Assembly (NCBI RefSeq): GCF_003334785.1
Contig: NZ_QOWV01000005.1
Direction: 5' to 3' (one strand)
Origin: Escherichia coli
GTDB lineage: Bacteria > Pseudomonadota > Gammaproteobacteria > Enterobacterales > Enterobacteriaceae
Length of the DNA: 64,000 nt
The stretch's first letter is position 1, and each line of letters opens with the position of its first letter. Positions 12,805 to 24,275 of the stretch are shown here, piece after piece. The notes under the pieces were generated by a model that had not been told where the DNA came from, did not search any database, and was given only the letters and a program-made list of their open reading frames with translations. Both the position numbers and the translations under genes were made by a program.

Positions 12805-14796
12805 ATGTCCTCACGTAAAGAGCTTGCCAATGCTATTCGTGCGCTGAGCATGGACGCAGTACAGAAAGCCAAATCCGGTCACCCGGGTGCCCCTATGGGT
12901 ATGGCTGACATTGCCGAAGTCCTGTGGCGTGATTTCCTGAAACACAACCCGCAGAATCCGTCCTGGGCTGACCGTGACCGCTTCGTGCTGTCCAACGGCC
13001 ACGGCTCCATGCTGATCTACAGCCTGCTGCACCTCACCGGTTACGATCTGCCGATGGAAGAACTGAAAAACTTCCGTCAGCTGCACTCTAAAACTCCGGG
13101 TCACCCGGAAGTGGGTTACACCGCTGGTGTGGAAACCACCACCGGTCCGCTGGGTCAGGGTATTGCCAACGCAGTCGGTATGGCGATTGCAGAAAAAACG
13201 CTGGCGGCGCAGTTTAACCGTCCGGGCCACGACATTGTCGACCACTACACCTACGCCTTCATGGGCGACGGCTGCATGATGGAAGGCATCTCCCACGAAG
13301 TTTGCTCTCTGGCGGGTACGCTGAAGCTGGGTAAACTGATTGCATTCTACGATGACAACGGTATTTCTATCGATGGTCACGTTGAAGGCTGGTTCACCGA
13401 CGACACCGCAATGCGTTTCGAAGCTTACGGCTGGCACGTTATTCGCGACATCGACGGTCATGACGCGGCATCTATCAAACGCGCAGTAGAAGAAGCGCGC
13501 GCAGTGACTGACAAACCTTCCCTGCTGATGTGCAAAACCATCATCGGTTTCGGTTCCCCGAACAAAGCCGGTACCCACGACTCCCACGGTGCGCCGCTGG
13601 GCGACGCTGAAATTGCCCTGACCCGCGAACAACTGGGCTGGAAATATGCGCCGTTCGAAATCCCGTCTGAAATCTATGCTCAGTGGGATGCGAAAGAAGC
13701 AGGCCAGGCGAAAGAATCCGCATGGAACGAGAAATTCGCTGCTTACGCGAAAGCTTATCCGCAGGAAGCCGCTGAATTTACCCGCCGTATGAAAGGCGAA
13801 ATGCCGTCTGACTTCGACGCTAAAGCGAAAGAGTTCATCGCTAAACTGCAGGCTAATCCGGCGAAAATCGCCAGCCGTAAAGCGTCTCAGAATGCTATCG
13901 AAGCGTTCGGTCCGCTGTTGCCGGAATTCCTCGGCGGTTCTGCTGACCTGGCGCCGTCTAACCTGACCCTGTGGTCTGGTTCTAAAGCAATCAACGAAGA
14001 TGCTGCGGGTAACTACATCCACTACGGTGTTCGCGAGTTCGGTATGACCGCGATTGCTAACGGTATCTCCCTGCACGGTGGCTTCCTGCCGTACACCTCC
14101 ACCTTCCTGATGTTCGTGGAATACGCACGTAACGCCGTACGTATGGCTGCGCTGATGAAACAGCGTCAGGTGATGGTTTACACCCACGACTCCATCGGTC
14201 TGGGCGAAGACGGCCCGACTCACCAGCCGGTTGAGCAGGTCGCTTCTCTGCGCGTAACCCCGAACATGTCTACATGGCGTCCGTGTGACCAGGTTGAATC
14301 CGCGGTCGCGTGGAAATACGGTGTTGAGCGTCAGGACGGCCCGACCGCACTGATCCTCTCCCGTCAGAACCTGGCGCAGCAGGAACGAACTGAAGAGCAA
14401 CTGGCAAACATCGCGCGCGGTGGTTATGTGCTGAAAGACTGCGCCGGTCAGCCGGAACTGATTTTCATCGCTACCGGTTCAGAAGTTGAACTGGCTGTTG
14501 CTGCCTACGAAAAACTGACTGCCGAAGGCGTGAAAGCGCGCGTGGTGTCCATGCCGTCTACCGACGCATTTGACAAGCAGGATGCTGCTTACCGTGAATC
14601 CGTACTGCCGAAAGCGGTTACTGCACGCGTTGCTGTAGAAGCGGGTATTGCTGACTACTGGTACAAGTATGTTGGCCTGAACGGTGCTATCGTCGGTATG
14701 ACCACCTTCGGTGAATCTGCTCCGGCAGAGCTGCTGTTTGAAGAGTTCGGCTTCACTGTTGATAACGTTGTTGCGAAAGCAAAAGAACTGCTGTAA
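12805..14796 (+). CDS. tktA: Transketolase 1
   Basis: Translation [41 protein letters not shown]... recognised as TktA; start at atg 12805. Confidence 0.97.
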
Positions 14797-14811
14797 TTAG
14801 CATTTCGGGTA

Positions 14812-14838
14812 AAAAGGTCGCTTCGGCGACCTTTTTTA
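14812..14838 (+). terminator. Rho-independent terminator of tktA
   Basis: aaaaggtcgcttcggcgacctttttt: perfect stem with ttcg loop and T-run. Confidence 0.8.
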
Positions 14839-15109
14839 TTACCTTGATATGTCCGTTTGCGGACAAGCAATAGATAAGGCGTGTTGTAGATCACAAATAT
14901 TTATATGCAATAAATATCAATTATGTAATATGCATCACGATATGCGTATTGACATTTGTTGTTATATCTATAACTCAATGTTATATAAGAAATTAATAAT
15001 TCACTGTTTTCAAAACACCGGTTTCCCTGCTCAATTGCTTTCATTAAACCGCACGAGTATTTTATTTTTACCGCCGGACGGTACCCTAAAAATAAAATAA
15101 GGATAATTT

Positions 15110-15553
15110 ATGCGGCTTAGTGATTATTTTCCAGAATCATCAATCTCAGTTATACATTCAGCAAAAGATTGGCAGGAAGCTATCGATTTCTCGATGGTAT
15201 CATTGCTGGATAAAAACTATATCAGCGAGAATTACATTCAGGCAATTAAAGATTCCACCATTAACAATGGCCCTTATTATATTCTCGCACCAGGCGTGGC
15301 AATGCCTCATGCGCGACCGGAATGTGGGGCGCTTAAAACCGGGATGTCTTTGACATTACTTGAACAAGGTGTTTATTTTCCGGGGAATGACGAACCAATT
15401 AAATTACTCATCGGACTCTCTGCTGCCGATGCCGATTCGCACATTGGCGCTATTCAGGCGTTAAGTGAATTACTGTGCGAAGAAGAAATACTCGAACAAC
15501 TCTTAACAGCATCATCAGAAAAACAATTAGCGGACATTATCAGCCGCGGATAA
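15110..15553 (+). CDS. cmtB: Cryptic mannitol-type PTS enzyme IIA component
   Basis: 147-aa ORF resembling the PTS EIIA (mannitol/fructose) domain; AT-rich gene preceded by a very AT-rich 270-bp upstream region. Confidence 0.88.
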   Translation: MRLSDYFPESSISVIHSAKDWQEAIDFSMVSLLDKNYISENYIQAIKDSTINNGPYYILAPGVAMPHARPECGALKTGMSLTLLEQGVYFPGNDEPIKLLIGLSAADADSHIGAIQALSELLCEEEILEQLLTASSEKQLADIISRG

Positions 15554-15580
15554 TTACTCTCTCCTCTACAGGATAATATT

Positions 15581-16969
15581 ATGGAAAACAAGTCTGCTCG
15601 TGCAAAGGTCCAGGCTTTTGGGGGCTTTTTGACTGCAATGGTCATCCCCAATATTGGTGCTTTTATTGCCTGGGGTTTTATTACTGCGTTATTTATTCCC
15701 ACCGGTTGGCTGCCTAACGAACATTTCGCCAAAATTGTCGGCCCGATGATTACCTATTTATTGCCCGTGATGATTGGTTCTACAGGTGGTCATCTGGTCG
15801 GCGGTAAACGCGGGGCGGTCATGGGCGGAATAGGTACTATTGGTGTGATCGTTGGCGCAGAGATCCCGATGTTCCTTGGCTCAATGATCATGGGGCCGCT
15901 CGGTGGGTTGGTCATAAAATATGTCGATAAGGCACTGGAAAAACGCATACCTGCCGGTTTTGAGATGGTTATCAATAACTTCTCATTAGGTATCGCGGGG
16001 ATGCTCCTTTGTCTGCTGGGTTTTGAAGTTATCGGCCCGGCGGTGTTAATTGCCAATACTTTCGTCAAAGAGTGTATTGAGGCGCTGGTACATGCGGGTT
16101 ATCTGCCATTGTTGTCAGTCATCAATGAACCGGCGAAAGTGCTTTTCCTCAATAATGCGATCGATCAGGGCGTCTATTATCCGCTGGGAATGCAACAGGC
16201 TTCGGTTAACGGTAAATCCATCTTCTTTATGGTGGCCTCTAACCCAGGTCCGGGCCTGGGGCTGCTGCTGGCGTTTACCTTGTTTGGTAAAGGGATGAGT
16301 AAACGTTCTGCGCCCGGGGCGATGATTATTCACTTCCTCGGTGGGATCCACGAACTGTATTTCCCGTATGTGCTGATGAAGCCGCTGACCATTATTGCCA
16401 TGATTGCGGGCGGTATGTCTGGCACCTGGATGTTTAACTTACTGGACGGTGGTCTGGTGGCTGGCCCAAGTCCGGGGTCTATCTTTGCTTACCTGGCACT
16501 GACGCCGAAAGGCTCGTTCCTGGCGACAATTGCCGGTGTTACGGTAGGTACCCTGGTGTCCTTTGCTATTACTTCGCTGATACTGAAGATGGAAAAAACG
16601 GTGGAAACGGAGAGCGAAGATGAGTTTGCTCAGTCAGCCAATGCGGTTAAGGCGATGAAACAAGAGGGTGCATTCTCGTTAAGCAGGGTTAAGCGTATCG
16701 CCTTTGTTTGCGATGCGGGGATGGGCTCCAGTGCGATGGGCGCGACCACCTTCCGTAAACGCCTGGAAAAAGCGGGGCTGGCAATTGAAGTAAAACATTA
16801 CGCCATAGAAAACGTGCCTGCGGATGCGGATATCGTCGTTACTCATGCCAGTCTGGAAGGGCGCGTGAAACGTGTGACGGATAAACCACTGATATTGATT
16901 AATAACTATATTGGCGATCCAAAACTCGACACTTTATTTAATCAATTAACCGCCGAACATAAACACTGA
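15581..16969 (+). CDS. cmtA: Cryptic mannitol-type PTS enzyme IICB component
   Basis: 462-aa ORF with N-terminal polytopic membrane domain and C-terminal EIIB-like segment (VCDAGMGSSAM). Confidence 0.9.
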   Translation: MENKSARAKVQAFGGFLTAMVIPNIGAFIAWGFITALFIPTGWLPNEHFAKIVGPMITYLLPVMIGSTGGHLVGGKRGAVMGGIGTIGVIVGAEIPMFLGSMIMGPLGGLVIKYVDKALEKRIPAGFEMVINNFSLGIAGMLLCLLGFEVIGPAVLIANTFVKECIEALVHAGYLPLLSVINEPAKVLFLNNAIDQGVYYPLGMQQASVNGKSIFFMVASNPGPGLGLLLAFTLFGKGMSKRSAPGAMIIHFLGGIHELYFPYVLMKPLTIIAMIAGGMSGTWMFNLLDGGLVAGPSPGSIFAYLALTPKGSFLATIAGVTVGTLVSFAITSLILKMEKTVETESEDEFAQSANAVKAMKQEGAFSLSRVKRIAFVCDAGMGSSAMGATTFRKRLEKAGLAIEVKHYAIENVPADADIVVTHASLEGRVKRVTDKPLILINNYIGDPKLDTLFNQLTAEHKH

Positions 16970-16983
16970 TTACAGAGGTAAAA

Positions 16984-18261
16984 ATGAAAACCAAAGTTGC
17001 TGCTATTTATGGCAAGCGGGATGTCCGTCTGCGCGTATTTGAACTGCCAGAAATTACCGATAATGAATTACTGGTGAGTGTAATTTCTGACAGCGTCTGT
17101 TTATCGACCTGGAAAGCGGCGTTACTCGGTAGTGAACATAAACGCGTACCCGACGATTTAGAAAATCATCCGGTCATTACCGGGCATGAATGTGCCGGGG
17201 TTATTGTCGAAGTGGGTAAAAATCTCACTGGCAAATATAAAAAAGGCCAGCGTTTTGTATTGCAACCGGCGATGGGGTTACCAAGCGGATATTCAGCGGG
17301 CTACAGCTACGAATATTTTGGCGGCAATGCCACTTATATGATTATTCCCGAAATCGCCATTAATTTGGGCTGCGTATTACCGTATCACGGCTCTTATTTT
17401 GCTGCGGCGTCGCTGGCAGAGCCTATGTGCTGCATTATTGGTGCTTATCATGCCAATTATCACACCACGCAATATGTTTATGAGCATCGCATGGGCGTCA
17501 AACCTGGCGGCAATATTGCACTGCTGGCGTGTGCAGGTCCGATGGGCATTGGCGCTATCGATTACGCCATTAACGGCGGCATACAACCGTCGCGGGTGGT
17601 GGTGGTCGATATCGACGACAAACGTCTGGCGCAGGTACAGAAGCTGCTGCCGGTGGAACTGGCGGCCAGTAAAGGCATTGAGCTGGTGTATGTGAATACC
17701 AAAGGGATGAGCGATCCTGTCCAGATGCTGCGGGCGCTGACAGGAGATGCCGGGTTCGATGACATTTTTGTTTATGCGGCGGTGCCTGCTGTCGTTGAGA
17801 TGGCTGATGAATTACTGGCGGAAGATGGCTGTCTGAACTTCTTTGCCGGGCCGACGGATAAAAACTTCAAAGTGCCGTTTAATTTCTACAACGTCCATTA
17901 CAACAGCACGCACGTCGTCGGTACATCTGGCGGTTCAACGGACGACATGAAAGAGGCGATTGCCCTTAGCGCCACTGGGCAGTTACAGCCGTCGTTTATG
18001 GTGACCCATATCGGTGGCCTGGATGCGTTGCCAGAAACCGTGCTCAATCTGCCGGATATCCCTGGCGGTAAAAAACTCATTTATAACGGCGTGACCATGC
18101 CGCTCACTGCCATTGCCGATTTTGCCGAAAAAGGCAAAACCGATCCGCTGTTTAAAGAGTTGGCGCGGCTGGTTGAGGAAACGCACGGCATCTGGAATGA
18201 ACAGGCCGAGAAATATCTGCTGGCACAATTTGGCGTTGATATCGGGGAGGCCGCGCAATGA
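16984..18261 (+). CDS. yggP: Zn-dependent medium-chain dehydrogenase/reductase-like protein (putative polyol dehydrogenase)
   Basis: 425-aa ORF; GHECAG zinc-ligand-like motif; 4-nt ATGA overlap with yggF. Confidence 0.85.
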   Translation: MKTKVAAIYGKRDVRLRVFELPEITDNELLVSVISDSVCLSTWKAALLGSEHKRVPDDLENHPVITGHECAGVIVEVGKNLTGKYKKGQRFVLQPAMGLPSGYSAGYSYEYFGGNATYMIIPEIAINLGCVLPYHGSYFAAASLAEPMCCIIGAYHANYHTTQYVYEHRMGVKPGGNIALLACAGPMGIGAIDYAINGGIQPSRVVVVDIDDKRLAQVQKLLPVELAASKGIELVYVNTKGMSDPVQMLRALTGDAGFDDIFVYAAVPAVVEMADELLAEDGCLNFFAGPTDKNFKVPFNFYNVHYNSTHVVGTSGGSTDDMKEAIALSATGQLQPSFMVTHIGGLDALPETVLNLPDIPGGKKLIYNGVTMPLTAIADFAEKGKTDPLFKELARLVEETHGIWNEQAEKYLLAQFGVDIGEAAQ

Positions 18262-19223
18262 TGTCCCTGGCGTGGCCATTATTTCGCGTTACGGAACAGG
18301 CAGCGTTGGCTGCCTGGCCGCAAACCGGATGTGGCGACAAAAATAAAATTGATGGCCTGGCGGTCACCGCGATGCGCCAGGCATTAAACGACGTCGCTTT
18401 TCGTGGACGAGTGGTTATCGGCGAAGGAGAAATTGACCATGCGCCGATGCTGTGGATTGGCGAAGAGGTGGGCAAAGGCGATGGGCCAGAAGTCGATATC
18501 GCGGTTGATCCCATTGAAGGCACGCGGATGGTGGCGATGGGGCAGAGCAATGCGCTGGCGGTCATGGCTTTCGCCCCTCGAGATAGCCTGTTACATGCGC
18601 CCGATATGTATATGAAAAAGCTGGTTGTTAATCGGCTGGCGGCGGGCGCGATTGATCTGTCTTTGCCTCTGACGGACAACCTGCGCAACGTGGCGAAAGC
18701 GTTAGGCAAACCGCTGGATAAGCTGCGCATGGTTACGCTGGATAAACCGCGCCTGAGTGCCGCGATTGAGGAAGCAACACAGCTGGGCGTGAAGGTTTTT
18801 GCCCTGCCGGATGGCGATGTCGCCGCCAGCGTGCTGACCTGCTGGCAGGATAATCCTTACGATGTGATGTACACCATCGGCGGTGCGCCAGAAGGCGTGA
18901 TTTCTGCCTGTGCCGTTAAAGCATTAGGCGGGGATATGCAGGCCGAGCTGATTGACTTTTGCCAGGCTAAAGGGGATTACACGGAAAATCGGCAGATTGC
19001 AGAGCAGGAGCGCAAGCGTTGCAAGGCAATGGGCGTTGACGTTAACCGTGTGTACTCGCTCGATGAACTGGTGAGGGGGAACGATATCCTCTTTAGCGCT
19101 ACGGGCGTGACGGGCGGTGAGCTGGTGAACGGTATCCAACAGACGGCGAATGGGGTGCGGACGCAGACATTACTGATCGGCGGCGCGGACCAAACGTGTA
19201 ATATAATAGACTCCCTGCATTGA
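18258..19223 (+). CDS. yggF: Fructose-1,6-bisphosphatase class II (GlpX paralog)
   Basis: 321-aa ORF recognised as a GlpX-family FBPase paralog; start overlaps the yggP stop. Confidence 0.88.
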   Translation: MMSLAWPLFRVTEQAALAAWPQTGCGDKNKIDGLAVTAMRQALNDVAFRGRVVIGEGEIDHAPMLWIGEEVGKGDGPEVDIAVDPIEGTRMVAMGQSNALAVMAFAPRDSLLHAPDMYMKKLVVNRLAAGAIDLSLPLTDNLRNVAKALGKPLDKLRMVTLDKPRLSAAIEEATQLGVKVFALPDGDVAASVLTCWQDNPYDVMYTIGGAPEGVISACAVKALGGDMQAELIDFCQAKGDYTENRQIAEQERKRCKAMGVDVNRVYSLDELVRGNDILFSATGVTGGELVNGIQQTANGVRTQTLLIGGADQTCNIIDSLH

Positions 19224-19244
19224 TGGTGATCTATCGGAAGACCA

Positions 19245-19754
19245 ATGGCGACGCTGACAGAAGATGATGTGCTTGAGCAACTGGATGCACAGGACAATTT
19301 ATTTTCATTTATGAAAACTGCGCATACCATTTTGCTCCAGGGGATACGCCAGTTTCTGCCGTCGCTGTTTGTCGATAACGATGAAGAGATCGTGGAATAT
19401 GCAGTGAAGCCGTTACTCGCCCAAAGCGGCCCGCTTGACGATATTGATGTTGCACTGCGTTTGATTTATGCGTTGGGGAAAATGGATAAATGGTTGTACG
19501 CCGATATCACGCATTTTTCCCAGTTCTGGCATTACCTGAACGAACAGGATGAAACGCCCGGATTTGCCGATGACATGACCTGGGATTTTATCAGCAACGT
19601 CAATAGCATAACCCGCAATGCGATGCTCTATGACGCGTTAAAAGCGATGAAGTTCGCTGATTTCTCCGTCTGGTCAGAGGCGCGTTTTAGCGGAATGGTC
19701 AAAACGGCGCTGACGCTGGCAGTAACGACCACCTTAAAGGAATTAACGCCGTGA
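19245..19754 (+). CDS. fumE: MtlR-like protein YggD (also annotated as fumarase E)
   Basis: 169-aa ORF; resemblance to the mannitol repressor MtlR family is from memory. Confidence 0.8.
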   Translation: MATLTEDDVLEQLDAQDNLFSFMKTAHTILLQGIRQFLPSLFVDNDEEIVEYAVKPLLAQSGPLDDIDVALRLIYALGKMDKWLYADITHFSQFWHYLNEQDETPGFADDMTWDFISNVNSITRNAMLYDALKAMKFADFSVWSEARFSGMVKTALTLAVTTTLKELTP

Positions 19755-20464
19755 AAATTGAATTAACGGTGAATGGGCTGAAGATACAGGCACAGTACCA
19801 GAACGAAGAGATTGAAAATGTACATAAACCGTTGCTGCACATGTTGGCGGCCTTACAGACGGTAAATCCGCAGCGGCGTACGGTGGTTTTTCTTTGCGCT
19901 CCGCCGGGGACGGGTAAATCAACCCTAACCACCTTCTGGGAATATCTCGCGCAACAAGACCCGGAACTGCCCGCTATTCAGACGCTCCCGATGGATGGTT
20001 TTCACCATTACAATAGCTGGCTGGATGCGCATCAATTGCGCCCCTTCAAAGGCGCACCAGAGACATTTGACGTTGCGAAACTGACGGAAAATCTGCGCCA
20101 GGTCGTGGAAGGGGATTGTACGTGGCCGCAGTACGATCGACAAAAGCATGATCCTGTTGAAGATGCGTTGCACGTTACCGCACCACTCGTCATCGTCGAA
20201 GGAAACTGGTTGTTACTGGATGATGAAAAGTGGCTGGAGTTGGCATCTTTCTGCGATTTTTCTATTTTTATTCATGCACCTGCTCAAATTCTGCGGGAGC
20301 GCTTGATTAGTCGTAAAATTGCGGGAGGATTAACGCGGCAAGTAGCCGAAGCATTTTATGCCCGCACCGATGGCCCCAATGTCGAGCGTGTGCTGATGAA
20401 TAGCCGTCAGGCCAATCTGATAGTAGAGATGACTGAAGAAGGCCGGTATCACTTCACAAGCTGA
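19751..20464 (+). CDS. yggC: P-loop NTPase / kinase-like protein of unknown specificity
   Basis: 237-aa ORF with Walker A motif CAPPGTGKST; GTGA overlap with the yggD stop. Confidence 0.82.
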   Translation: MKIELTVNGLKIQAQYQNEEIENVHKPLLHMLAALQTVNPQRRTVVFLCAPPGTGKSTLTTFWEYLAQQDPELPAIQTLPMDGFHHYNSWLDAHQLRPFKGAPETFDVAKLTENLRQVVEGDCTWPQYDRQKHDPVEDALHVTAPLVIVEGNWLLLDDEKWLELASFCDFSIFIHAPAQILRERLISRKIAGGLTRQVAEAFYARTDGPNVERVLMNSRQANLIVEMTEEGRYHFTS

Positions 20465-20748
20465 CAATTTATTCCAGTTATTGTAGGGTTATTATTACGC
20501 CAGCCTGGAATAAAGCTTCCCACAAAAGGGGATAAAAGTGTGATGTGAGTCAGATAAATGTCTTCTTCGGCTGGACAAACATTCCTTTTATTCCACGTTT
20601 CGCTTATCCTAGCTGAAGCGTTTCAGTCGATTAAATGTTCGACAATTAACCAATCAGTCGCAGTTTGCGACAGGTAAGGTTTCCCCGGACGATTTGCTGG
20701 ATTACTCTGTCTGGCAAATTTGCTCAGGGAAAACCTTGCAGGAGATCT

Positions 20749-21768
20749 ATGACCGTACGCGTAGCGATAAATGGCTTCGGTCGCATCGGGCGTAATGTGG
20801 TTCGTGCTTTGTATGAATCCGGACGCCGGGCGGAAATTACCGTGGTGGCAATCAACGAACTGGCGGATGCTGCGGGCATGGCGCATTTGTTGAAATATGA
20901 CACCAGCCATGGCCGTTTTGCATGGGAAGTACGACAGGAACGCGATCAACTTTTTGTTGGTGATGACGCCATCCGCGTATTGCATGAACGTTCACTGCAA
21001 TCGCTCCCCTGGCGTGAACTTGGCGTTGATGTAGTCCTCGACTGCACCGGCGTATATGGCTCCCGCGAGCATGGCGAAGCGCATATTGCCGCCGGGGCCA
21101 AAAAAGTGCTCTTTTCACATCCTGGCAGTAACGATCTCGACGCGACCGTTGTTTACGGCGTCAATCAGGATCAACTTCGTGCGGAACACCGCATCGTTTC
21201 TAACGCTTCCTGTACCACGAATTGCATAATTCCCGTCATCAAATTGTTAGATGATGCGTACGGTATTGAGTCCGGCACTGTGACCACAATTCACTCCGCC
21301 ATGCACGATCAACAGGTTATTGATGCATACCATCCTGACCTGCGTCGCACCCGGGCAGCCAGCCAGTCGATCATTCCGGTCGATACTAAACTGGCCGCCG
21401 GTATCACACGATTTTTTCCGCAATTTAACGATCGCTTTGAAGCGATTGCGGTACGTGTGCCAACCATAAATGTGACGGCAATCGATTTAAGCGTGACGGT
21501 GAAGAAACCTGTAAAAGCCAATGAAGTCAACCTGTTGCTGCAAAAAGCAGCACAAGGTGCATTTCATGGTATAGTTGACTATACGGAATTGCCGTTGGTC
21601 TCTGTAGATTTTAACCACGATCCGCACAGTGCCATTGTCGATGGCACCCAAACCCGGGTCAGTGGCGCACACCTGATCAAAACGTTGGTCTGGTGCGATA
21701 ACGAATGGGGCTTTGCTAACCGAATGCTCGACACGACGTTAGCTATGGCTACTGTTGCTTTCAGGTAA
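20749..21768 (+). CDS. epd: D-erythrose-4-phosphate dehydrogenase
   Basis: Translation [37 protein letters not shown]... recognised as Epd (GapB); start trimmed 28 codons from the track ORF. Confidence 0.95.
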
Positions 21769-21817
21769 GACGCAAGCAGCGTCTGCAAAACTTTTAGAAT
21801 CAACGAGAGGATTCACC

Positions 21818-22981
21818 ATGTCTGTAATTAAGATGACCGATCTGGATCTTGCTGGGAAACGTGTATTTATCCGTGCGGATCTGAACGTACCAGTAAAAGA
21901 CGGGAAAGTAACCAGCGACGCGCGTATCCGTGCTTCTCTGCCGACCATCGAACTGGCCCTGAAACAAGGCGCAAAAGTGATGGTAACTTCCCACCTGGGT
22001 CGTCCTACCGAAGGCGAGTACAACGAAGAATTCTCTCTGCTGCCGGTTGTTAACTACCTGAAAGACAAACTGTCTAACCCGGTTCGTCTGGTTAAAGATT
22101 ACCTCGACGGCGTTGACGTTGCTGAAGGTGAACTGGTTGTTCTGGAAAACGTTCGCTTCAACAAAGGCGAGAAGAAAGACGACGAAACCCTGTCCAAAAA
22201 ATACGCTGCACTGTGTGACGTGTTCGTAATGGACGCATTCGGTACTGCTCACCGCGCGCAGGCTTCTACTCACGGTATCGGTAAATTCGCTGACGTTGCG
22301 TGCGCAGGCCCGCTGCTGGCAGCTGAACTGGACGCGCTGGGTAAAGCACTGAAAGAACCTGCTCGCCCGATGGTGGCTATCGTTGGTGGTTCTAAAGTAT
22401 CTACCAAACTGACCGTTCTGGACTCCCTGTCTAAAATCGCTGACCAGCTGATTGTTGGTGGTGGTATCGCTAACACCTTTATCGCGGCACAAGGCCACGA
22501 TGTGGGTAAATCCCTGTACGAAGCTGACCTGGTTGACGAAGCTAAACGTCTGCTGACCACCTGCAACATCCCGGTTCCGTCTGATGTTCGCGTAGCAACC
22601 GAGTTCTCTGAAACTGCACCGGCTACCCTGAAATCTGTTAACGATGTGAAAGCTGACGAGCAGATCCTGGATATCGGTGATGCTTCCGCTCAGGAACTGG
22701 CTGAAATCCTGAAGAATGCGAAAACCATTCTGTGGAACGGTCCGGTTGGCGTGTTCGAATTCCCGAACTTCCGCAAAGGTACTGAAATCGTGGCTAACGC
22801 TATCGCAGACAGCGAAGCGTTCTCCATCGCTGGCGGCGGCGACACTCTGGCAGCAATCGACCTGTTCGGCATTGCTGACAAAATCTCCTACATCTCCACT
22901 GGCGGCGGCGCATTCCTCGAATTCGTGGAAGGTAAAGTACTGCCTGCAGTAGCGATGCTCGAAGAGCGCGCTAAGAAGTAA
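21818..22981 (+). CDS. pgk: Phosphoglycerate kinase
   Basis: Translation [40 protein letters not shown]... recognised as Pgk; start trimmed 21 codons. Confidence 0.97.
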
Positions 22982-22988
22982 AAAATCA

Positions 22989-23014
22989 CAGGGCAGGGAA
23001 ACCTGCCCTTGTTT
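22989..23014 (+). terminator. Putative rho-independent terminator after pgk
   Basis: cagggcagggaaacctgcccttgttt. Confidence 0.6.
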
Positions 23015-23049
23015 CAGCGCGCTTTTAGAGCACGCAATTTTTCATACTC

Positions 23050-23170
23050 TAAATAATTCGAGTTGCAGGAAGGCGACAAGAGAGTGAATCCCCAGGAGCT
23101 TACATAAGTAAGTGACTGGGGTGAGCGAACGCAGACGCAGCACATGCAACTTGAAGTATGACGAGTATAA
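23050..23170. repeat. ERIC (enterobacterial repetitive intergenic consensus / IRU) element in the pgk-fbaA intergenic region
   Basis: Core gtgaatccccaggagcttacat + aagtaagtgactggggtgagcg matches the reverse complement of ERIC1R followed by ERIC2 (primer sequences from memory); outer boundaries approximate. Confidence 0.85.
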
Positions 23171-23195
23171 GGCCCGACGATACAGGACAAGAGAC

Positions 23196-24275
23196 ATGTC
23201 TAAGATTTTTGATTTCGTAAAACCTGGCGTAATCACTGGTGATGACGTACAGAAAGTTTTCCAGGTAGCAAAAGAAAACAACTTCGCACTGCCAGCAGTA
23301 AACTGCGTCGGTACTGACTCCATCAACGCCGTACTGGAAACCGCTGCTAAAGTTAAAGCGCCGGTTATCGTTCAGTTCTCCAACGGTGGTGCTTCCTTTA
23401 TCGCTGGTAAAGGCGTGAAATCTGACGTTCCGCAGGGTGCTGCTATCCTGGGCGCGATCTCTGGTGCGCATCACGTTCACCAGATGGCTGAACATTATGG
23501 TGTTCCGGTTATCCTGCACACTGACCACTGCGCGAAGAAACTGCTGCCGTGGATCGACGGTCTGTTGGACGCGGGTGAAAAACACTTCGCAGCTACCGGT
23601 AAGCCGCTGTTCTCTTCTCACATGATCGACCTGTCTGAAGAATCTCTGCAAGAGAACATCGAAATCTGCTCTAAATACCTGGAGCGCATGTCCAAAATCG
23701 GCATGACTCTGGAAATCGAACTGGGTTGCACCGGTGGTGAAGAAGACGGCGTGGACAACAGCCACATGGACGCTTCTGCACTGTACACCCAGCCGGAAGA
23801 CGTTGATTACGCATACACCGAACTGAGCAAAATCAGCCCGCGTTTCACCATCGCAGCGTCCTTCGGTAACGTACACGGTGTTTACAAGCCGGGTAACGTG
23901 GTTCTGACTCCGACCATCCTGCGTGATTCTCAGGAATATGTTTCCAAGAAACACAACCTGCCGCACAACAGCCTGAACTTCGTATTCCACGGTGGTTCCG
24001 GTTCTACTGCTCAGGAAATCAAAGACTCCGTAAGCTACGGCGTAGTAAAAATGAACATCGATACCGATACCCAATGGGCAACCTGGGAAGGCGTTCTGAA
24101 CTACTACAAAGCGAACGAAGCTTATCTGCAGGGTCAGCTGGGTAACCCGAAAGGCGAAGATCAGCCGAACAAGAAATACTACGATCCGCGCGTATGGCTG
24201 CGTGCCGGTCAGACTTCGATGATCGCTCGTCTGGAGAAAGCATTCCAGGAACTGAACGCGATCGACGTTCTGTAA
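23196..24275 (+). CDS. fbaA: Fructose-bisphosphate aldolase class II
   Basis: Translation MSKIFDFVKPGVITGDDVQKVFQVAKENNFALPAVNCVG... recognised as FbaA; start trimmed 28 codons (track ORF runs through the ERIC element). Confidence 0.97.
   Translation: MSKIFDFVKPGVITGDDVQKVFQVAKENNFALPAVNCVGTDSINAVLETAAKVKAPVIVQFSNGGASFIAGKGVKSDVPQGAAILGAISGAHHVHQMAEHYGVPVILHTDHCAKKLLPWIDGLLDAGEKHFAATGKPLFSSHMIDLSEESLQENIEICSKYLERMSKIGMTLEIELGCTGGEEDGVDNSHMDASALYTQPEDVDYAYTELSKISPRFTIAASFGNVHGVYKPGNVVLTPTILRDSQEYVSKKHNLPHNSLNFVFHGGSGSTAQEIKDSVSYGVVKMNIDTDTQWATWEGVLNYYKANEAYLQGQLGNPKGEDQPNKKYYDPRVWLRAGQTSMIARLEKAFQELNAIDVL

What the first reader, a model, noticed from the sequence alone, without database searches (positions are those of the whole stretch)
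14840..20464. Cryptic AT-rich six-gene carbohydrate locus cmtB-cmtA-yggP-yggF-yggD-yggC
Six co-directional genes are packed with 14-27 nt gaps or 4-nt overlaps (ATGA at 18258..18261, GTGA at 19751..19754), implying one operon. The operon and its 270-bp upstream region are visibly AT-rich compared with flanking tktA and epd, consistent with old horizontal acquisition and silencing. The gene set reads as a complete uptake, oxidation and phosphate-handling pathway (mannitol-type PTS EIIA and EIICB, Zn-dependent polyol dehydrogenase-like, class II fructose-bisphosphatase paralog, MtlR-like protein, P-loop kinase-like), but no substrate or inducing condition is established for it. This is the least understood functional unit in the window.
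Basis: partly seen in the sequence, partly recalled or inferred. Interest (0 to 1): 0.45.

Follow-up and report, generated by a model that had tools for sequence, protein, structure and literature searches.

The report
E. coli orphan cmt-ygg sugar-alcohol operon
This is the long-known but still unexplained E. coli K-12 gene cluster cmtB-cmtA-yggP-yggF-yggD-yggC: a conserved, selected, CRP-activated cassette that probably imports and breaks down a mannitol-like sugar alcohol, not a silenced AT-rich foreign island.

Summary
The window is 100% identical to E. coli K-12 strains, so the locus is already annotated. The AT-richness claim holds only for the 270-bp leader (GC 0.315) and cmtB (0.423). 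The other five genes (0.48-0.57) match their neighbours.

The cluster is not a decaying relic:
- It is in 5426/5426 complete E. coli genomes.
- dN/dS against Salmonella is 0.04-0.10.
- The PTS phosphorylation sites are intact.
- Published data show CRP binding, CRP-dependent promoter activity, nucleoside induction and YggF FBPase activity.

The genes travel as a cassette through Enterobacterales, Vibrionaceae and Firmicutes, in many chromosomal contexts. The core is PTS + YggP + YggC. YggP is a full-length 45% homologue of L-sorbose-1-phosphate reductase SorE. Phosphoesterases, MtlR-type regulators and, in four architectures, transketolase are recurrent partners.

Best model, inferred rather than shown: polyol → polyol-1-P → ketose-1-P → ketose-1,ω-bisphosphate → ketose-ω-P or aldolase cleavage. 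The substrate is still unknown. The locus is known and of moderate interest, and it now comes with testable predictions.

The parts
12805..14796 (+). tktA (transketolase), upstream neighbour; probably a functional partner rather than a neutral flank
   Evidence: Annotated. Transketolase genes are adjacent to or inside homologous cassettes in Vibrio hepatarius L022, L046 and L044.
14811..14836 (+). tktA intrinsic terminator hairpin (11-bp arms, 4-nt loop, then a T run); separates tktA from the cmt promoter region
   Evidence: dG -23 kcal/mol, z = -5.42; I3.
14880..14895 (.). CRP binding site CGTGTTGTAGATCACA
   Evidence: Pattern match. Its reverse complement TGTGATCTACAACACG is the site under the CRP ChIP-seq peak at cmtB in ETEC H10407 (PMC4287617). 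cmtB is also a CRP genomic-SELEX target with lower promoter activity in a crp mutant.
14924..14939 (.). Second CRP-like site TGTAATATGCATCACG (2 mismatches), 44 bp from the first; unverified
   Evidence: Such matches are not enriched in the window as a whole (31 found, 27 expected).
15035..15063 (+). Candidate conserved core promoter: -35 TTGCTT (15035-15040), 17-nt spacer, -10 TATTTT (15058-15063); predicted start near 15070
   Evidence: Phylogenetic footprint in alignment A2 of 8 Enterobacteriaceae genera, where TTG.TTT and GTATTTTATTT are invariant or nearly so. It scores below the consensus-scan threshold, which is consistent with activator dependence. The start site has not been mapped.
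15058..15099 (+). Perfect 13-nt AT inverted repeat (TATTTTATTTTTA / TAAAAATAAAATA) enclosing a small GC stem-loop, just upstream of the cmtB Shine-Dalgarno sequence
   Evidence: I1. The left arm is conserved in 8 genera, the right arm in Escherichia, Salmonella and Citrobacter, and the inner stem varies. Function unknown.
15110..15553 (+). cmtB, PTS EIIA (mannitol/fructose type)
   Evidence: NCBIfam equivalog NF007358, 326 bits against a cutoff of 192. The active-site motif AMPHARP is present.
15581..16969 (+). cmtA, PTS EIICB of the mannitol family
   Evidence: TIGR00851 scores 480 against a cutoff of 468.4, and NF011663 scores 592.9 against 589. The EIIB motif VCDAGMGSSAMGA aligns to the phospho-cysteine region of MtlA EIIB, PDB 1vkr.
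16984..18261 (+). yggP, long Zn-dependent MDR dehydrogenase of the SorE (L-sorbose-1-phosphate reductase) subfamily
   Evidence: It is 45-46% identical over 98% of its length to sorE in bona fide sor operons. The full-length alignment A3 keeps C39, H68 and E69. It lacks the Cys-rich structural-zinc loop.
17504..17520 (+). Intragenic sigma-54 binding site CTGGCGGCAATATTGCA inside yggP
   Evidence: ChIP site IS35 in PMC4591121, located. The motif overlaps the codons for KPGGNIAL, and its GG/GC core is kept largely by coding constraint in other genera.
18258..19223 (+). yggF, class II (GlpX-type) fructose-1,6-bisphosphatase paralogue
   Evidence: TIGR00330 scores 588 against a cutoff of 259. E = 5e-111 to E. 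coli GlpX, PDB 1ni9. FBPase activity is reported by Brown et al. 2009, as cited in PMC8719807.
19245..19754 (+). yggD (named fumE by PGAP), MtlR-fold protein; probably the regulator of the cassette
   Evidence: PDB 3c8g at E = 4e-108, and MtlR structures 6kcr and 3brj. NF007455 equivalog. Its slot is filled by a PRD/MtlR-type regulator in the Firmicute cassettes. No DNA binding was seen in ChIP-exo.
19751..20464 (+). yggC, P-loop kinase of the PRK/Udk/PanK superfamily (FrcK-like); substrate unknown, proposed ketose-phosphate kinase
   Evidence: NF006742 scores 504 against a cutoff of 402, while PanK and Udk models score far below their cutoffs. The Walker A motif APPGTGKST and the DGFH and EGNW motifs are invariant. 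The best PDB match is 3c8u, deposited as 'fructokinase', at E = 5e-21. It always accompanies YggP in the cassettes.
20210..20527 (+). K-12-type haplotype segment: divergent 3' end of yggC plus a short spacer, replaced in most E. coli by another yggC 3' end and a convergent 5-gene ECF-transporter cluster
   Evidence: Identity to the other allele drops from about 98-100% to 49-73% after about 20210, and homology resumes at 20528. The K-12 type is in 2089/5426 genomes.
20749..24275 (+). epd-pgk-fbaA, downstream neighbours (E4P dehydrogenase, phosphoglycerate kinase, class II FBP aldolase)
   Evidence: A class II aldolase follows the cassette and transketolase in L046.

Best explanation
The region is the known E. 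coli K-12 locus cmtB-cmtA-yggP-yggF-yggD(fumE)-yggC.

I read it as one CRP-activated transcription unit. It has its own promoter region downstream of the tktA terminator. It encodes a self-contained, evolutionarily mobile PTS cassette for a mannitol-like polyol.

Proposed route (all steps inferred):
1. CmtA (EIICB) and CmtB (EIIA) import the polyol and phosphorylate a terminal carbon.
2. YggP, a SorE-family zinc dehydrogenase, oxidises the carbon next to the phosphate and gives a ketose-1-phosphate.
3. YggC, a P-loop kinase, phosphorylates the other end and gives a ketose-1,ω-bisphosphate (FBP for a hexitol, sedoheptulose-1,7-bisphosphate for a heptitol).
4. The bisphosphate is either cleaved by class II aldolase, or dephosphorylated at C1 by the GlpX-type YggF. 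Dephosphorylation gives a ketose-ω-phosphate (F6P or S7P) that enters glycolysis or the transketolase branch of the pentose phosphate pathway.
5. YggD is the MtlR-type regulator that couples expression to the phosphorylation state of the PTS.

Shown by sequence or by cited experiments:
- gene identities and family memberships
- intact catalytic and phosphorylation motifs
- conservation of the cassette and purifying selection on it
- CRP control
- YggF FBPase activity

Inferred: the substrate, the direction of the YggP reaction, the substrate of YggC, the regulatory role of YggD, and the single transcript.
For: Identity: 100% match to K-12 strains and to RefSeq annotation.

Functional rather than decaying:
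- The locus is present in 5426/5426 complete E. coli genomes.
- dN/dS against Salmonella is 0.04-0.10 for five of the six genes; cmtB could not be scored because its dS is saturated. tktA and epd give 0.04.
- The EIIB Cys and EIIA His motifs and the MDR Cys/His/Glu zinc ligands are intact.

Cassette:
- The same genes occur in the same order at the tkt/epd site in Escherichia, Salmonella, Citrobacter, Enterobacter, Superficieibacter and Phytobacter.
- They lie in other chromosomal contexts in Hafnia, Yersinia and Serratia.
- Rahnella and Budvicia have 5-gene forms.
- Vibrionaceae add a PHP phosphoesterase.
- Firmicutes carry a minimal EIIA-YggC-EIICB-YggP set plus a PRD regulator.

Chemistry:
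- YggP is 45-46% identical over its full length to SorE in true sor operons. SorE interconverts ketose-1-P and hexitol-P.
- CmtA passes the mannitol-family cutoffs.
- The regulators are of the two 'mannitol regulator' kinds: PF05068 MtlR in Proteobacteria, and Mga-PRD-EIIA in Firmicutes.
- In Rahnella the cassette abuts mtlA-mtlD-mtlR.
- A kinase acting after a PTS step implies a bisphosphate intermediate. Phosphoesterases recur in the cassette: GlpX-type, PHP, and one calcineurin-like.
- YggF has FBPase activity.
- Transketolase is adjacent or internal in 4 of about 13 independent contexts, and a class II aldolase follows it in L046.

Regulation: CRP ChIP site, CRP dependence, and a conserved core-promoter footprint.
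Against: - No substrate has been demonstrated. A 198-compound reporter screen found nucleosides, not polyols, to be the best inducers, and that effect is shared by many sugar transporters.
- The YggC-family member FrcK is not the fructokinase of S. meliloti and its substrate is unknown.
- Many Firmicute YggC homologues occur without YggP or a Mtl-type PTS.
- L044 carries both GlpX-type and PHP genes, so these are not simply interchangeable. Rahnella, Budvicia and the minimal Firmicute cassettes have no phosphoesterase, so the phosphatase step is not obligatory.
- YggD gave no ChIP-exo signal and is reported to have fumarase activity.
- Nac overexpression moved cmtA up 5.75-fold and yggP down to 0.036 in the same experiment. 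If this is not noise or a roadblock effect, it argues against strict co-transcription.
- SorE works in the reductive direction in its own pathway.
Confidence: 0.45

Rival explanations
1. Sorbose-like reductive route. CmtAB take up a ketose as ketose-1-phosphate. YggP reduces it to a hexitol phosphate, as SorE does. Unlinked dehydrogenases (MtlD, SrlD or GatD) then finish the job. YggC and YggF would have accessory or salvage roles.
For: - YggP is a close full-length homologue of SorE, whose physiological direction is reduction.
- Mannitol- and fructose-family PTS are related, and CmtB also hits fructose EIIA models.
- In Rahnella the cassette lies next to mtlD.
Against: - It leaves the invariant partner YggC, and the recurrent phosphoesterases and transketolase, unexplained.
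- The minimal Firmicute cassettes carry no second dehydrogenase.
- CmtA scores as a mannitol-type, not a fructose-type, EIIC.
Confidence: 0.15
2. Same cassette, but the product is plain FBP from mannitol or glucitol by way of fructose-1-phosphate. YggF is there only to supply F6P for biosynthesis, as glpX does in the glpFKX operon. The transketolase linkage is incidental.
For: - The minimal Firmicute cassette (PTS + YggP + YggC) must end in a central metabolite, and FBP fits.
- YggF is a measured FBPase.
- YggC homologues sit beside class II FBP aldolase in L023, L034 and L035, and near fruK-fruA in L025.
- The mannitol-type PTS and regulators fit.
Against: - Transketolase is inside or adjacent to the cassette in four different architectures, which is hard to ascribe to chance.
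- E. coli already has mtlADR and fruBKA, and from my own knowledge mtlA mutants do not grow on mannitol.
- Mannitol was not reported as an inducer.
Confidence: 0.2
3. One reading: an old horizontally acquired, AT-rich island kept silent (for example by H-NS), whose genes are cryptic in E. coli.
For: - The leader (GC 0.315) and cmtB (0.423) are strongly AT-rich.
- The cassette occupies different chromosomal sites in different Enterobacterales and sits beside an IS fragment in Yersinia.
- Both flanks are polymorphic in E. coli.
- The codon usage is that of weakly expressed genes.
Against: - Five of the six genes have ordinary GC.
- The 5' AT dip is a conserved feature of the cassette in Salmonella and Hafnia.
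- The locus is universal in E. coli and syntenic across Enterobacteriaceae.
- It is under strong purifying selection.
- The promoter is CRP-bound, CRP-dependent and inducible.
- The one paper the literature search returned for cmtB together with H-NS listed it only as a CRP target.
Confidence: 0.1
4. No common pathway. The genes are merely neighbours with separate jobs: CmtAB a redundant or aminoglycoside-leaky transporter, YggF a back-up gluconeogenic FBPase, YggD a fumarase, YggC a nucleoside or nucleotide kinase.
For: - Each protein has a separate published or database label: FBPase, fumarase E, 'nucleoside/nucleotide kinase family'.
- Deleting cmtA changes the tobramycin MIC.
- Deleting yggF slightly affects fermentative growth on glycerol.
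Against: - Co-occurrence and gene order are conserved from Enterobacteriaceae to Vibrionaceae and Firmicutes.
- The 4-nt overlaps are conserved in Salmonella.
- YggD has the MtlR fold and no similarity to known fumarase families.
Confidence: 0.08

Closest known systems
mtlADR mannitol PTS operon of E. coli
   Same: A mannitol-family EIICB with the same EIIB phospho-cysteine motif, a mannitol-type EIIA, and an MtlR-fold protein. In Rahnella the two systems lie side by side.
   Different: EIIA is a separate protein. There is no MtlD; instead there is a SorE-type zinc MDR dehydrogenase, a P-loop kinase and a class II bisphosphatase. YggD scores below the MltR-family cutoff (89 against 149).
sor operon (L-sorbose; SorE L-sorbose-1-phosphate reductase) of Klebsiella and Lactobacillaceae
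   Same: YggP is 42-46% identical to SorE over the full length and shares the zinc ligands and many invariant motifs. Both sit in PTS operons.
   Different: The sor operon uses a mannose-family PTS and an SDR glucitol-6-P dehydrogenase, and has no kinase or phosphatase. The direction and substrate of YggP are unknown.
fruBKA fructose PTS operon
   Same: The same logic: a PTS product phosphorylated at C1, followed by a second, ATP-dependent phosphorylation to a 1,6-bisphosphate. In Anaerostipes, YggC-YggP lie 5 kb from fruK-fruA.
   Different: FruK is a PfkB-family kinase, whereas YggC is a P-loop PRK/Udk/PanK-like kinase. The fru operon has no dehydrogenase.
glpFKX operon (GlpX class II FBPase embedded in a catabolic operon)
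   Same: YggF is a GlpX paralogue (E = 5e-111) co-located with genes for a substrate that would enter metabolism at or below FBP.
   Different: The catabolic context is different. YggF is reported to be less efficient than Fbp. Some homologous cassettes use a PHP protein or no phosphatase at all.
FrcK of Sinorhizobium meliloti (kinase in the fructose ABC-transporter operon) and PDB 3c8u
   Same: The same P-loop family as YggC. It is also linked to a fructose/mannitol-related transporter, and mutants grow poorly on fructose, mannitol and sorbitol.
   Different: It partners an ABC transporter rather than a PTS. It is not the fructokinase, and its substrate is unknown.
PTS pentitol/galactitol operons with polyol-phosphate MDR dehydrogenases and transketolase (Listeria, Enterococcus; gat operon) and glpX-fba-tkt sets of the SBPase-variant pentose phosphate/RuMP pathway
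   Same: Polyol-phosphate zinc dehydrogenases within PTS operons. GlpX-type phosphatase, class II aldolase and transketolase are linked, as in L044 and L046. The comparison with the named systems rests on my own knowledge, not on a test made here.
   Different: Those systems use galactitol-family PTS and lack a YggC-type kinase. No heptitol or sedoheptulose PTS has been described.

Membership tests
PTS mannitol family (EIICB + EIIA) | EIIC domain scores above the curated mannitol-family cutoff | tested here: met
   CmtA scores 480 on TIGR00851 (cutoff 468.4) and 592.9 on NF011663 (cutoff 589). Both are only just above the cutoff.
PTS mannitol family (EIICB + EIIA) | Phosphorylatable Cys in EIIB and His in EIIA | tested here: met
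   VCDAGMGSSAMGA aligns to the phospho-Cys region of MtlA EIIB, PDB 1vkr. CmtB has AMPHARP and is an NF007358 equivalog.
PTS mannitol family (EIICB + EIIA) | Transports and phosphorylates mannitol | not testable with these tools
   No transport data were found. Mannitol was not reported as an inducer in the reporter screen.
Class II (GlpX-type) fructose-1,6-bisphosphatase | Full-length match above the curated cutoff | tested here: met
   YggF scores 588 on TIGR00330 (cutoff 259.3). E = 5e-111 to E. coli GlpX structures.
Class II (GlpX-type) fructose-1,6-bisphosphatase | FBPase activity | not testable with these tools
   Reported by Brown et al. 2009, as cited in PMC8719807 and PMC10733421. The primary paper could not be read. 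Whether sedoheptulose-1,7-bisphosphate is a substrate is unknown to me.
Zn-dependent medium-chain dehydrogenase, SorE (L-sorbose-1-phosphate reductase) subfamily | Catalytic zinc ligands (Cys, His, Glu) and the two MDR domains | tested here: met
   C39, H68 and E69 are invariant in A3 and align to the sorbitol-dehydrogenase and ADH ligands. Homologues carry PF08240 and PF00107.
Zn-dependent medium-chain dehydrogenase, SorE (L-sorbose-1-phosphate reductase) subfamily | Full-length homology to SorE from a genuine sor operon | tested here: met
   45.8% identity over 98% of the length to K. pneumoniae sorE, which lies in a sorC-SDR-EIIABCD-sorE context. 42% to the L. plantarum sor-operon gene.
Zn-dependent medium-chain dehydrogenase, SorE (L-sorbose-1-phosphate reductase) subfamily | Acts on L-sorbose-1-phosphate | not testable with these tools
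   At 45% identity, in a different operon with a different PTS family, YggP is a paralogue and should not be named SorE.
MtlR/MltR family regulators (PF05068) | Sequence and fold membership | tested here: inconclusive
   The own-family equivalog NF007455 is met (333 against 167). The MltR-family model NF008234 scores 89, below its cutoff of 149. PDB MtlR structures 6kcr and 3brj are hit at E = 3e-12 and 5e-9, and YggD itself is 3c8g.
MtlR/MltR family regulators (PF05068) | Regulates its adjacent PTS operon | not testable with these tools
   ChIP-exo found no DNA binding. Support is only contextual: its slot is taken by PRD regulators in Firmicutes.
Fumarase (as PGAP names YggD 'fumarase E') | Similarity to class I or class II fumarase families | tested here: not met
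   The NCBIfam scan of YggD returned only NF007455 and the MltR family, and the PDB hits are MtlR-fold proteins only. The name rests on Sevin et al. 2017, as cited. I could not read that paper.
PanK / uridine kinase / phosphoribulokinase (P-loop kinases) | Walker A P-loop and the family fold | tested here: met
   APPGTGKST is invariant in A1. PDB hits are 3c8u and pantothenate kinases. Some homologues carry PF00485 (PRK).
PanK / uridine kinase / phosphoribulokinase (P-loop kinases) | Scores as an equivalog of PanK, Udk or PRK | tested here: not met
   PanK 51 against 235, Udk 37 against 180 and 32 against 220. YggC belongs to its own equivalog, NF006742.
Horizontally acquired genomic island | Atypical base composition across the island | tested here: not met
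   Only the leader and cmtB are atypical. The rest is 0.513 against 0.517 for the window.
Horizontally acquired genomic island | Patchy presence within the species, with mobility genes or a tRNA at the borders | tested here: not met
   The locus is in 5426/5426 complete genomes, and no mobility genes flank it in K-12. The flanks are nevertheless polymorphic, and the cassette lies in other contexts in other genera.
Operon (single transcription unit) | Co-directional genes, short gaps or overlaps, no internal terminators, order conserved across taxa | tested here: met
Operon (single transcription unit) | One transcript | not testable with these tools
   There is only indirect and partly discordant expression data, plus an intragenic sigma-54 site and a reported CRP SELEX signal at yggF.

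The most novel reading that the evidence does not exclude
The cmt-ygg cassette could be a previously undescribed 'phosphate-relocating' polyol pathway. The PTS puts the phosphate on C1, a SorE-type dehydrogenase makes a ketose-1-phosphate, and YggC then acts as the founding member of a new class of P-loop ketose-phosphate kinases, non-homologous to FruK/PfkB. A GlpX- or PHP-type phosphatase removes the C1 phosphate and delivers a ketose-ω-phosphate to transketolase.

The most striking version has a seven-carbon substrate: a heptitol such as volemitol or perseitol, or free sedoheptulose. This would be converted by way of sedoheptulose-1,7-bisphosphate to sedoheptulose-7-phosphate. That would explain the recurrent linkage with transketolase, class II aldolase and GlpX-type F/SBPase.

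The stated probability is for the general scheme with YggC as a ketose-phosphate kinase. I put the C7-specific version at about 0.1.
Probability: 0.27. Interest if true: 0.6.

Novelty: already known. Interest (0 to 1): 0.33.

Why it matters
The cmt-ygg cluster is one of the better-conserved orphan operons of the E. coli 'y-ome'. It is present in every complete E. coli genome examined, is under strong purifying selection, and is shared with Salmonella, Vibrio and gut Firmicutes. Even so, it has no known substrate some 30 years after it was first called cryptic (dating from my own knowledge of the first description).

Finding its substrate would do several things:
- add a carbon source, possibly a dietary or algal polyol, to the gut and marine niche map of these bacteria;
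- assign a function to the YggC/FrcK kinase family;
- test whether 'fumarase E' is a misnomer for an MtlR-type regulator;
- clarify why CmtAB affects aminoglycoside uptake.

For the genome scan itself, the result is mostly a calibration. The feature is real, but it is already annotated, and the compositional argument for foreignness and silencing does not hold.

Tried and rejected
- **Rfam scan of 12-23 kb.** Only two sub-threshold hits, both over the tktA terminator. There is no RNA element.
- **Consensus promoter and terminator scan.** No enrichment: 6 promoter-like sites against 8.9 expected, and 6 terminator-like against 7.5. The scan missed the tktA terminator and the weak conserved promoter.
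- **Terminator after yggC.** Folding of 20455-20600 is no better than shuffles (z = -1.06), so I call no terminator.
- **The 83-aa ORF at 14849-15100 in the leader.** No family hit, and it lies in a haplotype-specific AT-rich segment. I treat it as spurious.
- **PPi-phosphofructokinase as a recurrent partner.** Seen only in Lacrimispora L005 and in no other locus, so I dropped it.
- **'Non-orthologous displacement' of YggF by the PHP protein.** Weakened, because L044 has both.
- **All-against-all clustering of the neighbours of Firmicute YggC homologues.** The contexts are heterogeneous (FBP aldolase, mannose-family PTS, aldo-keto reductases, acetyltransferase), so no single conserved partner emerges outside the cassette.
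- **Sigma-54 site as a conserved internal promoter.** The GG/GC core is largely explained by the KPGGNIAL codons.
- **Literature.** The primary papers of Brown 2009 and Sevin 2017 are not held. No paper on a heptitol PTS was found. No paper was found that assigns a substrate to cmtA, yggP or yggC.
- **Not run.** I did not scan the metagenome collection, because it would probably be dominated by near-identical E. coli contigs. I did not predict structures, because a structure would not decide the substrate.

Full report
**1. What is there**

The region holds six + strand ORFs:
- cmtB 15110-15553
- cmtA 15581-16969
- yggP 16984-18261
- yggF 18258-19223
- yggD 19245-19754
- yggC 19751-20464

The gaps are 27, 14 and 21 nt. 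There are two 4-nt overlaps, ATGA at 18258 and GTGA at 19751. Each start has a Shine-Dalgarno-like motif.

The 6.1-kb stretch is 100% identical to E. coli K-12 derivatives. RefSeq annotates it as cmtB, cmtA, yggP, 'glpX' (= yggF), fumE (= yggD) and yggC, between tkt and epd-pgk-fbaA. The anatomy is confirmed. The locus is already known.

**2. Composition**

| Segment | GC |
|---|---|
| 270-bp leader (14840-15109) | 0.315 |
| cmtB | 0.423 (GC3 0.372) |
| cmtA | 0.498 |
| yggP | 0.509 |
| yggF | 0.566 |
| yggD | 0.480 |
| yggC | 0.503 |
| epd | 0.515 |
| whole window | 0.517 |
| 37 neighbouring genes | 0.520 +/- 0.031 |

- The leader is in the lowest 0.4% of 270-bp windows. cmtB has the lowest GC3 of 43 genes in the window.
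- Without the leader and cmtB the locus is 0.513.
- The same 5' dip is seen in Salmonella (spacer 0.289, cmtB 0.419) and in Hafnia (0.321, 0.414), so it is a conserved property of the cassette.
- Rare-codon use is that of weakly expressed genes and is similar to epd.

**3. Not a decaying relic, and not simply silent**

- The locus is in 5426/5426 complete E. coli genomes, and 5388 of them cover at least 80% of it.
- dN/dS against Salmonella is 0.037-0.103 for five of the six genes; cmtB could not be scored because its dS is saturated. tktA gives 0.041 and epd 0.038.
- CmtA keeps the EIIB phospho-cysteine motif and CmtB the EIIA histidine. YggP keeps the catalytic zinc ligands.
- CRP: ChIP-seq in ETEC places a peak at cmtB over TGTGATCTACAACACG (PMC4287617). 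That is the reverse complement of window 14880-14895. cmtB is also a CRP genomic-SELEX target whose promoter weakens in a crp mutant (PMC3105977).
- Induction: a PcmtA-gfp fusion is CRP-dependent and induced about 6-fold by uridine and other nucleosides in a 198-compound screen (PMC12412646).
- Aminoglycosides: in the same study, deleting cmtA raises the tobramycin MIC and overexpressing cmtAB raises aminoglycoside uptake (PMC12412646).
- cmtB rises 2-3-fold in EHEC grown in bovine gut contents (PMC6199705).
- YggF has FBPase activity (Brown 2009, as cited).

'No inducing condition is established' is therefore outdated. No substrate is established in any paper I could find.

**4. Promoter region**

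Only window 15032-15109 is shared by the two E. coli leader haplotypes. Across eight Enterobacteriaceae genera this stretch shows a footprint with three parts:
- -35 TTGCTT/TTGATT at 15035-15040
- a 17-nt spacer
- -10 TATTTT at 15058-15063, followed by a 13-nt perfect AT inverted repeat (15058-15070 / 15087-15099) around a small, variable GC stem-loop

This is a weak promoter of the activator-dependent kind. Its start, near 15070, is a prediction. The CRP site bound in vivo lies about 180 bp upstream, so a second, distal promoter is possible.

**5. The six genes are a cassette**

| Lineage | Arrangement |
|---|---|
| Escherichia, Salmonella, Citrobacter, Enterobacter, Superficieibacter, Phytobacter | tkt - cassette - (ECF cluster) - epd |
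| Hafnia | same six genes between menF and menD |
| Yersinia frederiksenii | same six genes beside an IS fragment |
| Serratia fonticola | same six genes beside hrpA |
| Rahnella, Budvicia | five-gene form without yggF; in Rahnella directly upstream of mtlA-mtlD-mtlR |
| Vibrionaceae | EIIA-EIICB-YggP-YggD-YggC plus a YcdX-like PHP phosphoesterase |
| Gut and rumen Firmicutes | minimal EIIA-YggC-EIICB-YggP next to an Mga-PRD-EIIA regulator (the Firmicute MtlR architecture, from my own knowledge) |

- The core is PTS + YggP + YggC.
- The regulator slot is filled by the two unrelated 'mannitol regulator' types.
- This conservation is the best evidence available here that the genes work together and are co-transcribed.

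**6. Clues to the chemistry**

(a) CmtA just passes the curated mannitol-family cutoffs.

(b) YggP is 45.8% identical over 98% of its length to sorE in a classical Klebsiella sor operon, and 42% identical to the L. plantarum sor-operon gene. SorE interconverts L-sorbose-1-phosphate and glucitol-6-phosphate. That is a carbonyl next to the phosphorylated carbon (established knowledge of the sor pathway).

(c) A kinase that always follows a PTS step implies a second phosphorylation. YggC has an invariant P-loop and belongs to the PRK/Udk/PanK superfamily, but fails the PanK and Udk cutoffs. Its nearest structure is the FrcK-like 3c8u. FrcK's own substrate is unknown.

(d) Phosphoesterases recur in the cassette: GlpX-type, PHP, and one calcineurin-like enzyme next to YggC-YggP in Anaerostipes. 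They are absent from some cassettes, and GlpX-type and PHP co-occur in L044, so they are neither obligatory nor strictly equivalent.

(e) Transketolase is linked in four distinct architectures:
- upstream in Enterobacteriaceae
- upstream in Vibrio hepatarius
- downstream in L046, followed by a class II aldolase in the same tightly packed operon
- as split subunits between glpX and yggC in the low-GC L044

With one or two tkt genes per genome, chance adjacency in 4 of about 13 contexts is very unlikely. My rough estimate is well below 1e-6.

**7. Model and rivals**

The best-supported scheme is:

1. polyol → (CmtAB) polyol-1-P
2. → (YggP) ketose-1-P
3. → (YggC) ketose-1,ω-bisphosphate
4. → aldolase cleavage, or (YggF) ketose-ω-P → glycolysis or the transketolase branch

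YggD would be the regulator.

- A hexitol version ends in FBP and fits the minimal Firmicute cassette.
- A heptitol or sedoheptulose version ends in SBP and S7P. It fits the GlpX, aldolase and transketolase linkage, but there is no direct evidence for it, and I found no paper describing a PTS for heptitols or sedoheptulose.

My confidence levels are:

| Claim | Confidence |
|---|---|
| Identity of the locus | about 0.99 |
| Functional cassette or operon | about 0.85 |
| Reaction order | about 0.4-0.45 |
| C7 substrate | about 0.1 |

The rivals, scored separately, are a sorbose-like reductive route, a plain F1P-to-FBP route with YggF acting only in gluconeogenesis, a silenced foreign island, and unrelated neighbouring genes.

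**8. YggD**

PGAP calls YggD 'fumarase E', following Sevin et al. 2017. However:
- It has the MtlR fold (PDB 3c8g, 6kcr, 3brj).
- It has no similarity to fumarase families.
- It occupies the regulator slot of the cassette.
- It gave no ChIP-exo signal.

I regard a regulatory role, possibly through protein-protein contacts with PTS components as described for MtlR (my own knowledge), as more likely than a metabolic fumarase role. This is inference.

**9. Polymorphic flanks**

- *Leader.* Window 14798-15031 is replaced in about a third of E. coli genomes by 1.25 kb carrying a prohibitin-family gene. The K-12-type segment is in 3595/5426 genomes.
- *yggC.* The gene is mosaic. After about 20210, identity to the commoner allele falls to 49-73%. 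The K-12-type 3' end and short spacer are in 2089/5426 genomes.
- *ECF cluster.* The other genomes carry a different yggC 3' end overlapped by a convergent ECF-transporter/PPC-domain cluster. That cluster is also present in Salmonella and Citrobacter.
- *Other Escherichia species.* The K-12-type C-terminus is shared with E. fergusonii and some E. albertii.

**10. Verdict**

The feature is real and its coordinates are correct. The pathway reading is plausible and is now better supported. The locus is already known, and the argument from AT-richness to foreign origin and silencing is largely wrong. What remains of interest is the unsolved substrate. The SorE homology, the invariant kinase and the transketolase linkage give specific experiments for finding it.

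Noticed in passing
window 20210-20527 (3' end of yggC and spacer); L002 7337-10413; L003 8354-11430: yggC is mosaic. The first ~460 nt are 98-100% identical to the commoner E. coli allele, and the last ~250 nt only 49-73%. The K-12 type is in 2089/5426 genomes. The others carry a different 3' end overlapped by a convergent 5-gene ECF-transporter/PPC-domain cluster, which is also present in Salmonella and Citrobacter. The K-12-type C-terminus is shared with E. fergusonii and some E. albertii.
   Followed up: yes
window 14798-15031; L003 1699-2949: Most of the AT-rich tkt-cmtB spacer, including the tktA terminator and the CRP site, is one of two haplotypes. In about a third of E. coli genomes, and in an E. 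fergusonii contig, it is replaced by 1.25 kb carrying a minus-strand prohibitin/Band-7 family gene. Only 15032-15109 is common to both.
   Followed up: partly
window 14880-14939: Two CRP-type sites lie 44 bp apart centre to centre, with a TGCAA motif between them (14907-11). Together with the published induction of PcmtA by uridine, cytidine and other nucleosides, this suggests a CytR-CRP type of control. The idea rests on my own knowledge of CytR promoters and was not tested.
   Followed up: no
window 15058-15099: A perfect 13-nt AT-only inverted repeat flanks a small GC stem-loop just upstream of the cmtB ribosome-binding site. It overlaps the candidate -10 element. The left arm is conserved in 8 genera, while the inner stem changes sequence but stays palindromic in most. 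It could be an operator or a 5'-UTR hairpin.
   Followed up: partly
window 17504-17520 (inside yggP): A published intragenic sigma-54 ChIP site (IS35) lies on the coding strand, 738 nt upstream of yggF. Its GG/GC core coincides with the codons for KPGGNIAL and is kept in other genera mainly for that reason.
   Followed up: partly
window 15581-18261 (cmtA, yggP): In a Nac-overexpression RNA-seq/ChIP-seq study, cmtA was among the most induced genes (5.75-fold) and yggP among the most repressed (0.036), each with an intragenic Nac peak. This could be noise at low expression, a roadblock effect, or a sign of separate regulation.
   Followed up: no
window 18258-19754: Database names are misleading. 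PGAP labels yggF 'glpX', although the true glpX lies elsewhere in the genome. It labels the MtlR-fold protein YggD 'fumarase E', although YggD shows no similarity to fumarase families.
   Followed up: partly
window 20539-20554: A near-consensus CRP site, TGTGATGTGAGTCAGA (1 mismatch), lies in the yggC-epd spacer, upstream of epd-pgk-fbaA. No convincing terminator follows yggC (z = -1.06), so read-through into epd cannot be excluded in K-12-type strains.
   Followed up: no
window 14849-15100: An 83-codon ATG ORF fills the AT-rich leader. It has no family match and lies mostly in the haplotype-specific segment, so it is probably not a gene.
   Followed up: partly
L002 6652-7365; hits H11 and H12: Some E. 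coli strains have damaged copies. Strain Ec1115 has an internal stop in yggC. One genome lacks yggF under the match (83% coverage), and one retains only tkt-cmtB-cmtA (21% coverage).
   Followed up: no
L008 9281-9495: Salmonella has a 213-nt spacer between yggF and yggD where E. coli has 21 nt. Its content was not examined.
   Followed up: no
L023, L034, L035, L027, L038: YggC-family kinases (37-44% identity) also occur in Firmicutes and Collinsella without YggP or a mannitol-type PTS. They lie next to class II FBP aldolase or to mannose-family PTS genes with a DagR-like regulator. The family is therefore wider than the cassette.
   Followed up: partly
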